Below, piece after piece: positions 15,001-18,000 of a stretch of DNA of 64,000 nt. Location: positions 72,292,001-72,356,000 of the forward strand of contig NC_083236.1 of NCBI RefSeq assembly GCF_032191835.1. The letters run 5' to 3'. The DNA comes from Heteronotia binoei. Its lineage: Eukaryota. Every line of letters starts with the position of its first letter. Position 1 is the first letter of the stretch. Position numbers: made by a program.

Positions 15001-18000
15001 TCCTTGCTGTCAGGCGGCCATCCAGCCCCTGCTTGAAAACCTCCAGGGAAGCAGAGCCCGCCCCCCACCTCCCGGGGAGGAAGCCTGATGGAAACGGGGA
15101 GGGAAGGGACCTCCGGGGTCATCCAGTCCACCCCCCCCCTGCAAATGCGGGAATCCCACCAATCCCCCCCCCTACAGTCACAGGGCCCTCCTTGCTGTCA
15201 GGCGGCCATCCAGCCGCTGCTTGAAAACCTCCAGGGAAGCAGAGCCCGCCCCCCACCTCCCAGGGAGGAAGCCTGATGGAAACGGGGAGGGAAGGGACCT
15301 CCGGGGTCATCCAGTCCAGCCCCCCTGCAAATGCAGGAATCCCACCAATCCCCCCCCCTACAGTCACAGGGCCCTCCTTGCTGTCAGGCGGCCATCCAGC
15401 CGCTGCTTGAAAACCTCCAGGGAAGCAGAGCCCGCCCCCCACCTCCCGGGGAGGAAGCCTGATGGAAACGGGGAGGGAAGGGACCTCCGGGGTCATCCAG
15501 TCCAGCCCCCCTGCAAATGCAGGAATCCCACCAATCCCCCCCCCCTACAGTCACAGGGCCCTCCTTGCTGTCAGGCGGCCATCCAGCCGCTGCTTGAAAA
15601 CCTCCAGGGAAGCAGAGCCCGCCCCCCACCTCCCGGGGAGGAAGCCTGATGGAAACGGGGAGGGAAGGGACCTCCGGGGTCATCCAGTCCACCCCCCTGC
15701 AAATGCGGGAATCCCACCAATCCCCCCCCCTACAGTCACAGGGCCCTCCTTGCTGTCAGGCGGCCATCCAGCCGCTGCTTGAAAACCTCCAGGGAAGCAG
15801 AGCCCGCCCCCCACCTCCCGGGGAGGAAGCCTGATGGAAACGGGGAGGGAAGGGACCTCCGGGGTCATCCAGTCCAGCCCCCCTGCAAATGCGGGAATCC
15901 CACCAATCCCCCCCCCTACATTCACAGGGCCCTCCTTGCTGTCAGGCGGCCATCCAGCCCCTGCTTGAAAACCTCCAGGGAAGCAGAGCCCGCCCCCCAC
16001 CTCCCGGGGAGGAAGCCTGATGGAAACGGGGAGGGAAGGGACCTCCGGGGTCATCCAGTCCACCCCCCTGCAAATGCAGGAATCCCACCAATCCCCCCCC
16101 TACATTCACAGGGCCCTCCTTGCTGTCAGGCGGCCATCCAGCCGCTGCTTGAAAACCTCCAGGGAAGCAGAGCCCGCCCCCCACCTCCCGGGGAGGAAGC
16201 CTGATGGAAACGGGGAGGGAAGGGACCTCCGGGGTCATCCAGTCCACCCCCCCCCCTGCAAATGCGGGAATCCCACCAATCCCCCCCCCTACAGTCACAG
16301 GGCCCTCCTTGCTGTCAGGCGGCCATCCAGCCGCTGCTTGAAAACCTCCAGGGAAGCAGAGCCCGCCCCCCACCTCCCAGGGAGGAAGCCTGATGGAAAC
16401 GGGGAGGGAAGGGACCTCCGGGGTCATCCAGTCCAGCCCCCCTGCAAATGCAGGAATCCCACCAATCCCCCCCCCTACAGTCACAGGGCCCTCCTTGCTG
16501 TCAGGCGGCCATCCAGCCGCTGCTTGAAAACCTCCAGGGAAGCAGAGCCCGCCCCCCACCTCCCGGGGAGGAAGCCTGATGGAAACGGGGAGGGAAGGGA
16601 CCTCCGGGGTCATCCAGTCCAGCCCCCCTGCAAATGCAGGAATCCCACCAATCCCCCCCCCCCTACAGTCACAGGGCCCTCCTTGCTGTCAGGCGGCCAT
16701 CCAGCCGCTGCTTGAAAACCTCCAGGGAAGCAGAGCCCGCCCCCCACCTCCCGGGGAGGAAGCCTGATGGAAACGGGGAGGGAAGGGACCTCCGGGGTCA
16801 TCCAGTCCAGCCCCCCTGCAAATGCGGGAATCCCACCAATCCCCCCCCTACATTCACAGGGCCCTCCTTGCCATCCAGCCCTGGGAAGCAGCGGTCTCCG
16901 CCCACCTCTTCCGCTCGGAGCCGCAGGAAGTTCTTCCTCAGGGAGCCGGAAGTTCTTTCATCCCCCGACACCCGACTCCCGGCGAGGGAGGGAAGGTGGG
17001 CGGGGCTAGAGGCTGTGCGCATGCTCATAACTCCTCCTCCCCCGCCCACGTGGCTTCCGCTTCCGGGAGCGACCGCTGCCGGCAAGATGGCGACGCCCGC
17101 CACGAGGGAGGGGTCGGAGGCCGAGCCCCGCCTCAGCAAGAAGTGAGTCCTCCCGCCCGTCCTCCCGCCATGCTCTCCCGGGCCCGGCTGGTGCTGGTGT
17201 CGGGAGGGGTCCGGCCGGCCTGGCCTCTGTCGCTCTGCTGCAGCACCGGCCGCCCTCGGCCTCCGCCGCCTGTCCCTCGCGGCCGGCGCCAGCAGCAGCA
17301 GCAGCAGCCCAGGTGGGTGGGTGAGTGTGGCGGGCGGGCGGGCGGGCGGGGGGCGCTGACGCAGGCCTCGCCGTCTCCCTCCCTCTCTCTCTCTCTCTCG
17401 CAGCGAGCTGAAGCGGCGCCTGAAGGCGGAGAAGAAAGTGGCCGAAAAGGAGGCGAAGCAGAAGGAGCAGAGCGAGAAGCCGCCCGCCGAGGGGGCCGCC
17501 GACGAGGACGCCCTGCTGGACGCCACCGTGAGGAGCCCCTCCCCCTCCCCCTCTCTCTCCAGGGCTGGGCTGGGCGGGCTCCAGCGACAGACCTCTCTGC
17601 CCCCCCCCGCGGCCTGGGAGCCCAGCCTCGAGGGTTTGCGCAGGCAAGCCTTCTCTCCCCCCCCCCTTGCAGCTCTTCTCACGGCCTTGCAGGAGGGGGG
17701 AGACAAGGCAACGTGCAGCTGAGGCTTTAATGGGTCGCCGGCCCCTGTGTTTTGGCAGCAATATTACAAGATCCGCAGCCAGGCCATCCAGCTGCTGAAG
17801 GGCACGCCTGAAGATCCCTATCCGCACAAGTTCCACGTGGATCTCTCCCTTACAGACTTCATAGACAAGTACAGCCATCTGAAGGCGGGCGATCACTTGG
17901 CTGAGGTCACAGTGAGAGTGGCAGGTAAAGGCATCGTGCCCCTTCGCTAGGACAATGGTGGCTGTGGATTACTGTGGTGCCCGAGGAGGAACTTTGCAGA

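What the first reader, a model, noticed from the sequence alone, without database searches (positions are those of the whole stretch)
17087..17404. KARS1 cytosolic/mitochondrial choice appears to use two competing 5' splice sites
In human the mitochondrial presequence is on a separately spliced exon 2. Here its ATG (17170) is only 27 nt after the exon-1 donor (17143), too short for an intron. The mitochondrial mRNA must skip the first donor and use AG|GTGGGT at 17312/3, or start from an internal TSS. In the extended exon the cytosolic frame stops at once (AAG AAG TGA, 17144-17146), forming a 19-codon uORF that ends 23 nt before the mitochondrial ATG. The uORF logic is kept while the intron seems to be gone.
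Basis: partly seen in the sequence, partly recalled or inferred. Interest (0 to 1): 0.65.

Follow-up and report, generated by a model that had tools for sequence, protein, structure and literature searches.

The report
Lizard KARS1 mitochondrial exon abuts exon 1
In this reptile's lysyl-tRNA synthetase gene, the piece that sends the enzyme to mitochondria sits directly after the first exon with no intron between, so the cell must choose between two splice donors (or two transcription starts) rather than skip an exon as in humans; this is a modest variant of a known system.

Summary
The window holds the KARS1 orthologue of a squamate reptile, between TERF2IP and ADAT1. Among the 29 proteins compared, a gecko's is closest.

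- **Cytosolic start:** the ATG is at 17087 and exon 1 ends at 17142, before GTGAGT.
- **Read-through:** it gives TGA at 17144-17146, so the uORF has 19 codons.
- **Mitochondrial start:** the next ATG in any frame is at 17170. It opens 47 codons with eight Arg and no acidic residue, ending AG|GTGGGT at 17312/17313.
- **Frame:** this donor has the same phase as exon 1 and gives a Ser junction codon, as in all 14 mitochondrial-type relatives examined.
- **No intron 1:** there is no AG between 17148 and 17204, so no acceptor can precede that ATG.

The peptide ranks first of 441 decoys for similarity to relatives' presequences.

What cannot be tested here is which route makes the mitochondrial mRNA: the second donor or an internal transcription start. 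It is also untested whether the compact layout is general in reptiles and birds, because no vertebrate DNA or RNA data were reachable.

An added lead is a predicted helix of about 27 bp, competing with a G-quadruplex, that loops out exactly the mitochondrial segment. Other CpG islands in the window give equally strong helices.

Verdict: a real, modest variant of a known system.

The parts
16872..17086 (+). Unique promoter stretch, which is the start of a CpG island. It lies between the tandem array and the cytosolic ATG and holds ETS-like, Sp1-like, NRF1-like and E-box motifs.
   Evidence: CpG o/e is 0.76 for 16872-17600, against 0.29 in the flanks. The motifs were scanned with consensus patterns that I recalled. 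The tandem array ends at 16871. The promoter role is inferred.
17083..17094 (+). TISU/YY1-like element over the cytosolic ATG, matching 11 of the 12 consensus positions.
   Evidence: The consensus SAASATGGCGGC comes from passages of PMC3177215. The distance to the transcription start is unknown.
17087..17142 (+). Coding part of exon 1, the cytosolic N-terminus. It has 18 codons plus AA and ends in phase 2.
   Evidence: The residues before the junction (EPRLSK plus an Asn junction codon) match the cytosolic-type relatives.
17087..17146 (+). uORF of 19 codons plus TGA. It exists only if the first donor is not used.
17143..17148 (+). First 5' splice site, GTGAGT. Its bases 2-4 form the uORF stop codon TGA.
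   Evidence: PWM 8.18; U1 duplex -5.7 kcal/mol (the PWM frequencies were recalled).
17147..17174 (+). C-rich spacer running to the mitochondrial ATG. It is the 5' arm of the predicted long-range helix.
17170..17312 (+). Coding segment for the mitochondrial presequence: ATG, 47 codons, then AG. It has 8 Arg and no Asp, Glu or Lys. It includes (CAG)6 at 17290-17307.
17313..17318 (+). Second, in-frame 5' splice site, CAG|GTGGGT. Out-of-frame GTs follow at 17317 and 17321.
   Evidence: PWM 9.76 and U1 duplex -12.5. The GT at 17321 (TGG|GTGAGT) scores 8.54 and -12.3.
17324..17354 (+). G-rich arm of the predicted helix. It contains a (GGGC)n G-quadruplex motif at 17332-17353.
17356..17360 (+). The only branch-point-like motif (CTGAC, with the A at 17359) in 17143-17403.
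   Evidence: The A lies 46 nt from the second donor and 44 nt from the acceptor AG.
17365..17403 (+). Polypyrimidine tract with (CT)n, followed by the common acceptor AG at 17402-17403.
   Evidence: pyrimidine fraction 0.95.
17404..17527 (+). First shared coding exon. After the junction base its translation starts ELKRR.
17087..30594 (+). The whole KARS1 coding span: 13 shared coding exons after the alternative 5' end.
   Evidence: tblastn of the Gekko kuhli LysRS protein (P0003) against the window. Pfam scanned exon by exon.

Best explanation
This is the 5' end of the KARS1 (lysyl-tRNA synthetase) orthologue of a squamate reptile. One gene makes both the cytosolic and the mitochondrial enzyme.

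The mitochondrial presequence is coded at 17170-17312. This segment is contiguous with exon 1 and is not a separate cassette exon. One CpG-island promoter gives a single pre-mRNA, and two 5' splice sites share one 3' splice site at 17403.

- **Cytosolic mRNA:** the site at 17143 is used. The ATG at 17087 is the start and the junction codon is Asn.
- **Mitochondrial mRNA:** the site at 17313 is used, which extends exon 1 by 170 nt.
  - The first ATG now opens only a 19-codon uORF, closed by the TGA that lies inside the unused first donor.
  - Ribosomes reach the next ATG, 23 nt further on, by reinitiation or leaky scanning.
  - They then make a 47-residue arginine-rich presequence joined through a Ser junction codon to the same enzyme body.

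**Shown:** the anatomy, the reading frames, the lack of any acceptor, and the homology of the presequence and its junction.

**Inferred:** that both donors are used, that the mitochondrial mRNA starts upstream of 17087, and how its ATG is reached.

**Weaker inference:** a predicted helix between 17147-17174 and 17324-17354, competing with a G-quadruplex in the (GGGC)n tract, may bias the donor choice.
For: **Gene identity**
- 13 ordered tblastn matches to the Gekko kuhli LysRS protein run from 17405 to 30591.
- tRNA-synt_2 scores above the curated cut-off in 5 of the 10 body exons scanned one at a time.
- The neighbours are Rap1_C (TERF2IP) upstream on the minus strand and A_deamin (ADAT1) downstream.

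**Presequence**
- Of the 29 named proteins examined, 14 are mitochondrial-type. All 14 have Ser immediately before the shared ELKRR/EAKRR motif.
- The 17313 donor gives AG+C, which is Ser.
- In 4 of the 5 squamate mitochondrial-type proteins, Pro precedes that Ser. The window has Pro there too.
- Summed Smith-Waterman score against 12 presequences: rank 1 of 441 decoys.
- Shuffles reaching the observed score: 3 of 1000 for the sum, 0 of 1000 against Lacerta agilis and 6 of 1000 against Pseudonaja.
- The peptide has 8 Arg and no acidic residue. Only 11 of the 441 open 47-mers, this one included, have no acidic residue and a net charge of at least +6.

**No intron 1**
- There is no AG in 17148-17204.
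- 17170 is the next ATG after 17087 in any frame.

**Donors**
- Both score within the range of the gene's 12 downstream donors: PWM 8.18 and 9.76 against a range of 3.66-12.25.

**Human precedent**
- In the human gene the mitochondrial mRNA keeps exon 1, and exon 2 brings a stop and then a new AUG (passages of PMC7600831).
Against: - No transcript, CAGE or ribosome data exist here, so use of either donor is unproven.
- A profile HMM built from the 12 relatives' presequences did not place the 17170 frame among its 12 best of 1667 window ORFs. The best E-value was 0.56.
- The word-indexed search with the peptide against longer proteins found nothing among 80 candidates.
- The exhaustive search gave 20 hits. 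All had 4-12 stretches, nearly all at internal positions, which looks like composition bias.
- The two passerine presequences are no more similar to the peptide than shuffles are (981 and 998 of 1000 shuffles reach the score).
- The second donor lies only 46 nt from the sole branch-point-like motif.
- An out-of-frame GT at 17321 is about as strong as the second donor.
- The first ATG has a strong context (A at -3, G at +4, 11 of 12 TISU positions) and the spacer is only 23 nt. Translation of the mitochondrial form from a uORF-bearing mRNA should therefore be inefficient, which leaves room for an internal start.
Confidence: 0.6

Rival explanations
1. Internal transcription start. The mitochondrial mRNA begins between 17090 and 17169 within the same CpG island. 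It then lacks the first ATG and the uORF, and it splices from 17313 to 17404. The two donors never compete on one RNA, and the choice is made at initiation.
For: - The region is a TATA-less CpG island (CpG o/e 0.76, no TATA or CCAAT match). From general knowledge, such promoters often start transcription over a broad zone.
- Only 83 nt separate the two ATGs.
- The strong first ATG and the 23-nt spacer argue that a uORF-bearing mRNA would be translated poorly.
Against: - In the human gene the mitochondrial mRNA contains exon 1 (passages).
- No initiator-like motif was found on the plus strand in 16872-17200 (a weak test using a recalled pattern).
- The ETS, Sp1, NRF1-like and E-box motifs on the plus strand, and the TISU/YY1-like element, all lie at or upstream of 17094. 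On the minus strand one Sp1-like match (at 17158) and the one initiator-like match (at 17146) lie downstream of it.
Confidence: 0.25
2. The layout is real but ordinary. The exon-1-adjacent presequence may be the general state in squamates or in all sauropsids, possibly the ancestral vertebrate state. In that case the window shows nothing special and the mammalian cassette exon is the derived form. This rivals the novelty claim, not the mechanism.
For: - The two-isoform system, with a Ser junction codon, is annotated in 5 squamates, 3 turtles, an alligator, 3 birds and a mammal among the 29 proteins examined.
- Any exon 1 that ends AA|GTRAGT gives an immediate stop on read-through, so the uORF logic comes free with the donor (read directly from the sequence).
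Against: None could be gathered. No genomic DNA of another vertebrate was reachable. Five literature searches found only descriptions of the human cassette exon.
Confidence: 0.4
3. Assembly artefact. A short GC-rich intron 1 was collapsed or deleted during assembly, and the real gene has a cassette exon as in human.
For: The stretch is 76% GC and holds simple tracts ((CCCG)n-like, (GGGC)n, (CAG)6, (CT)n). Sequence of this kind is error-prone.
Against: - The window has no N.
- Reading frames, donors and the acceptor are all intact.
- A collapse would have had to remove the acceptor and its tract cleanly.
Confidence: 0.05
4. The 17170 frame is a chance open frame in GC-rich intron sequence, and the mitochondrial enzyme comes from elsewhere.
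For: - Open frames are long here by composition alone: the stop-to-stop frame runs 320 codons.
- The HMM test and two database searches gave no specific hit.
Against: - The peptide ranks 1 of 441 decoys.
- The start, phase and junction residue match 14 of 14 mitochondrial-type relatives.
- The position is homologous to the exon described in human.
- The decoy ranking found no other ATG-started frame in the window that resembles relatives' presequences as well.
Confidence: 0.05

Closest known systems
Human KARS1 exon-2 cassette system (Tolkunova et al. 2000). The paper is not held. I know it here through passages in PMC7600831, PMC8251883, PMC8123711 and PMC4394549.
   Same: - One gene and one shared enzyme body starting at the same exon.
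- The cytosolic N-terminus is on exon 1.
- The mitochondrial presequence is coded downstream of exon 1.
- In the mitochondrial mRNA the exon-1 AUG is neutralised by an early stop, and a downstream AUG is used.
   Different: - In human the presequence lies on a separately spliced exon 2, and the choice is inclusion against skipping.
- Here there is no acceptor and only 27 nt after the first donor, so the choice must be between two 5' splice sites or two transcription starts.
- Here the uORF stop is the first donor's own TGA.
Zebrafish hars, cytoplasmic and mitochondrial forms by cassette exon 2 (PMC5608375; passages).
   Same: The exon-1 start is followed at once by a stop when the extra segment is included. 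A second in-frame start then gives the mitochondrial N-terminus.
   Different: It is a different synthetase. The extra segment is a true 300-bp cassette exon shown by RT-PCR, and not an exon extension.
Bcl-X alternative 5' splice sites with nearby RNA G-quadruplexes (PMC5778605; abstract and outline only).
   Same: Two competing 5' splice sites share one acceptor, and G-quadruplex-forming sequence lies close to a 5' splice site and competes with other RNA structures.
   Different: In Bcl-X the effect was shown experimentally with ligands. Here the G-quadruplex and the competing helix are predictions only.
[quoted passage not shown]
   Same: The cytosolic ATG sits in an 11-of-12 match to the consensus, in a housekeeping gene of protein synthesis. 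This is the class in which TISU is reported to be enriched.
   Different: The transcription start, and hence the 5' UTR length, is unknown here, so TISU function is not established.

Membership tests
Vertebrate KARS1 (class IIb lysyl-tRNA synthetase gene) | Class II catalytic core (Pfam tRNA-synt_2) | tested here: met
   5 of the 10 body exons, scanned singly, score at or above the curated cut-off of 25 bits (25.1-76.4 bits).
Vertebrate KARS1 (class IIb lysyl-tRNA synthetase gene) | OB-fold anticodon-binding domain (Pfam tRNA_anti-codon) | tested here: inconclusive
   Two exons hit at 23.2 and 26.2 bits, just under the cut-off of 27, because the domain is split over exons. The joined model was not assembled. 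tblastn to the Gekko protein covers this part at 92-94% identity.
Vertebrate KARS1 (class IIb lysyl-tRNA synthetase gene) | Full-length collinear similarity to named vertebrate LysRS proteins | tested here: met
   13 ordered matches. Identity over matched stretches is 0.795-0.877 to 29 named proteins.
Vertebrate KARS1 (class IIb lysyl-tRNA synthetase gene) | Conserved neighbours TERF2IP and ADAT1 (the human gene order is recalled) | tested here: met
   Rap1_C at 8241-8678 (-) and A_deamin at 33715-35313 (+).
KARS1 dual-isoform system as described in human | Two alternative N-termini joined to the same first shared exon | tested here: met
   Both segments end in phase 2 before one acceptor. Relatives show both N-terminus types.
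KARS1 dual-isoform system as described in human | Presequence on a separately spliced cassette exon 2, with an intron on each side | tested here: not met
   There are 27 nt between the first donor and the ATG, and no AG in 17148-17204.
KARS1 dual-isoform system as described in human | The exon-1 AUG is closed by a stop before the mitochondrial AUG in the longer mRNA | tested here: met
   TGA at 17144-17146 and ATG at 17170. This holds in the sequence. Whether such an mRNA exists was not testable.
KARS1 dual-isoform system as described in human | The longer form is imported into mitochondria | not testable with these tools
   Only composition could be examined: 8 Arg and no acidic residue. No targeting predictor was at hand.
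Alternative 5' splice-site event | Two GT donors upstream of one acceptor, both keeping the reading frame | tested here: met
   Donors at 17143 and 17313 and acceptor at 17403, with scores inside the range of the gene's own donors.
Alternative 5' splice-site event | Both junctions are seen in RNA | not testable with these tools
   No RNA data were available.
TISU element | Match to the 12-nt consensus over the ATG | tested here: met
   11 of 12 positions.
TISU element | Very short 5' UTR (median 12 nt in the paper) | not testable with these tools
   The transcription start is unknown.
RNA-structure control of splice-site choice | Stable long-range helix that hides or juxtaposes splice signals | tested here: inconclusive
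   - Helix pair probabilities are 0.90-1.0 for 7 of the 8 probed pairs in each of four sequence contexts.
- The arms are 31 nt long and 81% complementary.
- The fold z-score is -2.63.
- Against this, helices of the same energy occur in the two other GC-rich islands of the window.
RNA-structure control of splice-site choice | Covariation in orthologues | not testable with these tools
   No orthologous DNA was reachable.

The most novel reading that the evidence does not exclude
In this reptile lineage, intron 1 of KARS1 has been lost, or was never gained, so the cassette-exon switch of mammals is replaced by a contest between two 5' splice sites. A built-in RNA switch would set that contest.

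- A helix of about 27 bp between the donor-1-to-ATG spacer and the (GGGC)n tract loops out exactly the mitochondrial segment.
- The helix hides the second donor and the mitochondrial ATG, and places the first donor next to the branch point.
- Folding of the same G-tract into a quadruplex (or binding of G-run proteins, which I add from general knowledge) would break the helix and free the second donor.

The unused first donor then doubles as the uORF stop codon.
Probability: 0.12. Interest if true: 0.6.

Novelty: new variant of a known kind. Interest (0 to 1): 0.32.

Why it matters
KARS1 is one of only two synthetase genes that serve both cytosol and mitochondria in human (passages of PMC4826098). 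The balance between its two isoforms matters for disease and for HIV-1 packaging, where the mitochondrial form is the one taken into virions (abstract of PMC5889485, seen in the listing).

If the compact layout is lineage-specific, it shows that the same targeting logic can survive a change of splicing mode, from exon skipping to donor competition. That logic is an upstream AUG neutralised by an early stop, followed by a second AUG.

It would also give a small natural minigene of about 320 nt for testing how donor strength, branch-point distance, RNA structure and reinitiation together set a cytosol-to-mitochondria ratio.

If the layout is general in sauropsids, the finding is only an annotation note.

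Tried and rejected
**Database searches with single-exon peptides**
- The presequence peptide alone against longer proteins in the word-indexed database gave no hit among 80 candidates. This is weak evidence, because the peptide is low-complexity.
- The shared-exon peptide alone gave 2 hits: the Gekko kuhli protein, and one unnamed 101-aa protein that I left unused.
- The exhaustive HMMER search with the presequence peptide gave 20 hits at E <= 0.001. All had 4-12 matched stretches, nearly all at internal positions, in proteins of 221-1630 aa. I read these as composition bias and did not fetch them.

**Tests for similarity to relatives' presequences**
- A profile HMM of 12 relatives' presequences, run against 1667 window ORFs, did not place the 17170 frame among the 12 best.
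- I replaced that test with pairwise scores against decoys and shuffles.

**Literature**
- The original paper, Tolkunova et al. 2000, is not held, so the human structure rests on review passages.
- Searches for any description of the KARS1 5' layout outside mammals found none.

**Alternatives considered and set aside**
- An in-frame ATG at 17021, 22 codons upstream of 17087. It lies inside the promoter motifs, and its peptide has no Arg and is not presequence-like.
- An internal acceptor candidate at 17243. It would give an in-frame 69-nt cassette after exon 1. Its pyrimidine tract is weak (0.68) and no branch-point-like motif lies upstream of it, so I judged it unlikely.
- The helix as a proven element. 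I rejected this because the control scan finds equal energies in the other CpG islands of the window.

**Not done**
Every search was exon by exon.
- Paper supplements were closed. None seemed to bear on the claim.
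Full report
**What is in the sequence.**
I read 16700-17800 and translated each piece on its own.
- The ATG at 17087 opens 19 sense codons and then TGA at 17144-17146.
- The GT at 17143-17144 lies in GAA|GTGAGT, so the TGA is part of the donor itself.
- The next ATG is at 17170. This is 27 nt after 17143 and 23 nt after the stop.
- That ATG opens 47 codons (kept as P0001), followed by AG|GTGGGT at 17312/17313.
- The common acceptor AG is at 17402-17403, behind a (CT)n tract.
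- After its first base, the shared exon translates from ELKRR onwards (P0002).
- Both upstream segments end in phase 2, giving junction codons AA+C (Asn) and AG+C (Ser).
- On this strand the only ATGs in 16872-17320 are at 17021, 17087 and 17170.
- After the donor's own AG at 17146-17147, the next AG is at 17205.

No 3' splice site can lie between the first donor and the second ATG. The window holds no N.

**The gene and the organism.**
- The shared-exon peptale search returned a Gekko kuhli protein, P0003.
- Its tblastn against the window gives 13 ordered matches on the plus strand from 17405 to 30591. There is also one spurious weak match.
- Scanned exon by exon, Pfam gives tRNA-synt_2 above its cut-off in 5 exons. 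It gives the OB-fold anticodon domain just under its cut-off in 2 exons.
- Neighbours: a LINE fragment at 1018-3358 (+), Rap1_C of TERF2IP at 8241-8678 (-) and A_deamin of ADAT1 at 33715-35313 (+). Further on lie an ATG8-family gene at 49989-53864 (-) and TMEM231 at 53689-54638 (+).
- From memory, this is the gene order around human KARS1.
- Of the 29 named vertebrate LysRS proteins compared, the gecko is closest (541 of 617 aligned residues). Sceloporus isoform X1 is farthest, at 0.795.
- The window is therefore a squamate-like reptile and not human.
Every search was exon by exon.

**Is the 17170 frame the mitochondrial exon?**
An open frame alone means little here. GC is 0.76 and the stop-to-stop frame is 320 codons long.

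A search with the gecko protein listed 120 of 7610 hits. I fetched 28 named proteins and no unnamed or human ones. With P0003 that makes 29 proteins, which sort as follows:

| N-terminus type | Number of 29 |
|---|---|
| Cytosolic-type, ending LSKN before the shared motif | 13 |
| Mitochondrial-type | 14 |
| Another first exon (a turtle) | 1 |
| Aberrant (a crocodile) | 1 |

- All 14 mitochondrial-type proteins have Ser just before the shared motif, as the 17313 donor gives here.
- In 4 of the 5 squamate ones, Pro precedes the Ser, as in the window.
- I kept 12 of the 14 for statistics, dropping two turtle near-duplicates.
- A profile HMM of these 12 failed. The 17170 frame was not among its 12 best of 1667 window ORFs.
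- Pairwise scoring worked. The peptide's summed Smith-Waterman score ranks 1 of 441 ATG-started open 47-mers in the window.
- Shuffles reaching the observed score:

| Comparison | Shuffles reaching the score, of 1000 |
|---|---|
| Sum over 12 presequences | 3 |
| Lacerta agilis | 0 |
| Pseudonaja | 6 |
| Mammal (Condylura) | 48 |
| Pseudopipra (passerine) | 981 |
| Prinia (passerine) | 998 |

- The peptide has 8 Arg and no Lys, Asp or Glu. Of the 441 open 47-mers, 11 (this one included) have no acidic residue and a net charge of at least +6.
- Direct database searches with the peptide were uninformative.

I take the exon as real, with about 0.85 confidence.

**Splice signals.**
The PWM frequencies are recalled and approximate. 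The U1 pairing uses ViennaRNA duplex energies.

| Site | Sequence | PWM | U1 duplex (kcal/mol) |
|---|---|---|---|
| First donor, 17143 | GAA\|GTGAGT | 8.18 | -5.7 |
| Second donor, 17313 | CAG\|GTGGGT | 9.76 | -12.5 |
| Out-of-frame GT, 17321 | TGG\|GTGAGT | 8.54 | -12.3 |
| 12 downstream donors of the gene | set by eye | 3.66 to 12.25 | not compared |

- Both alternative donors look usable.
- The out-of-frame GT at 17321 is a caveat, because it is about as strong as the second donor.
- The only branch-point-like motif in 17143-17403 is CTGAC at 17356.
- Its A is 46 nt from the second donor. From memory, that is near the lower limit for vertebrate splicing.
- The introns would be 261 nt from the first donor and 91 nt from the second.

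**Translation logic.**
- The first ATG has A at -3 and G at +4, and it matches 11 of 12 positions of the TISU consensus.
- In an exon extended to 17312, that ATG gives the 19-codon uORF.
- The mitochondrial ATG is the next ATG in any frame, 23 nt after the stop.
- It would be reached by reinitiation or by leaky scanning. This step is inferred.
- Review passages confirm the same logic for the human gene: the mitochondrial mRNA has exons 1, 2 and 3, and exon 2 brings a stop and then a new AUG.
- The original paper is not held.
- Zebrafish hars does the same with a cassette exon.

**An added lead: a helix and a G-quadruplex.**
- Folding 17060-17420 as RNA pairs 17147-17174 with 17324-17354. The first arm is the spacer plus the mitochondrial ATG. 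The second is the (GGGC)n tract just after the second donor, ending at the branch point.
- The fold has MFE -217.6 kcal/mol and z = -2.63, and 2 of 100 shuffles fold as well.
- The two arms alone give -47.7 kcal/mol.
- The repeat finder reports arms of 31 nt at 81% complementarity.
- Seven of the eight probed pairs keep probabilities of 0.90-1.0 in each of four sequence contexts.
- Predicted probability of being unpaired:

| Element | P(unpaired) |
|---|---|
| First donor | 0.63 |
| Second donor | 0.12 |
| Mitochondrial ATG | 0.03 |
| Mean over the whole fold | 0.30 |

- With quadruplex folding allowed, a G-quadruplex replaces the outer half of the helix (MFE -224.2 against -217.6).
- The helix would loop out exactly the mitochondrial segment. 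For comparison, Bcl-X has G-quadruplexes beside two alternative 5' splice sites (abstract).

The control tempers this lead.
- Of 18172 28-nt segments on both strands, 57 reach -45 kcal/mol.
- The observed arm scores -55.4, and only one other locus, at 53635, does better.
- The 25 best segments all lie in three GC-rich islands: this one, 32.0-32.7 kb and 53.6-53.9 kb.
- Such helices therefore come with CpG-island composition.
- No covariation test was possible.

**What stays open.**
- No RNA data were reachable. I could not test whether both donors are used, or whether the mitochondrial mRNA starts upstream of 17087.
- No vertebrate genomic DNA was reachable either.
- Five literature searches found no description of the KARS1 5' layout outside mammals.

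**Verdict.**
This is a modest new variant of a known dual-targeting system. Its interest depends on transcript data and on a cross-species survey.

Noticed in passing
window 11647-16871: A tandem array of about 28 copies of a 184-bp unit (97% matches, GC 0.66, CpG o/e 0.29) ends about 215 bp upstream of the KARS1 ATG. It lies between TERF2IP (minus strand) and KARS1, which from memory share a head-to-head promoter in human. The long ORFs on both strands inside the array are repeat artefacts.
   Followed up: partly
window 17021-17086: An in-frame ATG lies 22 codons upstream of the cytosolic ATG, inside an NRF1-like GCGCATGC motif. The Vipera latastei model P0006 also carries a 22-residue extension before its cytosolic-type start. 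This may be an annotation effect of the same kind.
   Followed up: no
window 17290-17307: (CAG)6 codes six Gln at the end of the presequence, just before the second donor. None of the 14 mitochondrial-type relatives has such a run. Slippage in this repeat would change the presequence length but not the frame.
   Followed up: no
window 17243-17312: The motif ctgcag|C at 17243 could act as an acceptor. It would give a 69-nt cassette in frame with exon 1, adding 23 residues to the cytosolic form. Its pyrimidine tract is weak (0.68) and no branch-point-like motif lies upstream of it, so it is probably not used.
   Followed up: partly
window 17313-17326: Three overlapping GT registers lie at 17313, 17317 and 17321. 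Use of 17321 would shift the frame and meet a stop two codons into the shared exon, giving an unproductive mRNA.
   Followed up: partly
window 58078-58149 (-): Rfam reports a tRNA match (53 bits against a gathering score of 29), but ARAGORN finds no tRNA there. It may be a tRNA-derived repeat or a pseudogene.
   Followed up: partly
window 1018-3358 (+): A LINE fragment with an endonuclease domain and a reverse-transcriptase domain in separate frames.
   Followed up: no
window 32000-32700 and 53600-53870: Two further GC-rich islands lie near the start of ADAT1 and between the ATG8-family gene and TMEM231. They show long-range complementarity as strong as that at KARS1.
   Followed up: no
one search hit list (P0045, P0047, P0048): Stork protein models of 824-918 aa join LysRS with an A_deamin domain. 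This looks like read-through models of KARS1 into ADAT1, which fits the two genes being tandem neighbours here too.
   Followed up: no
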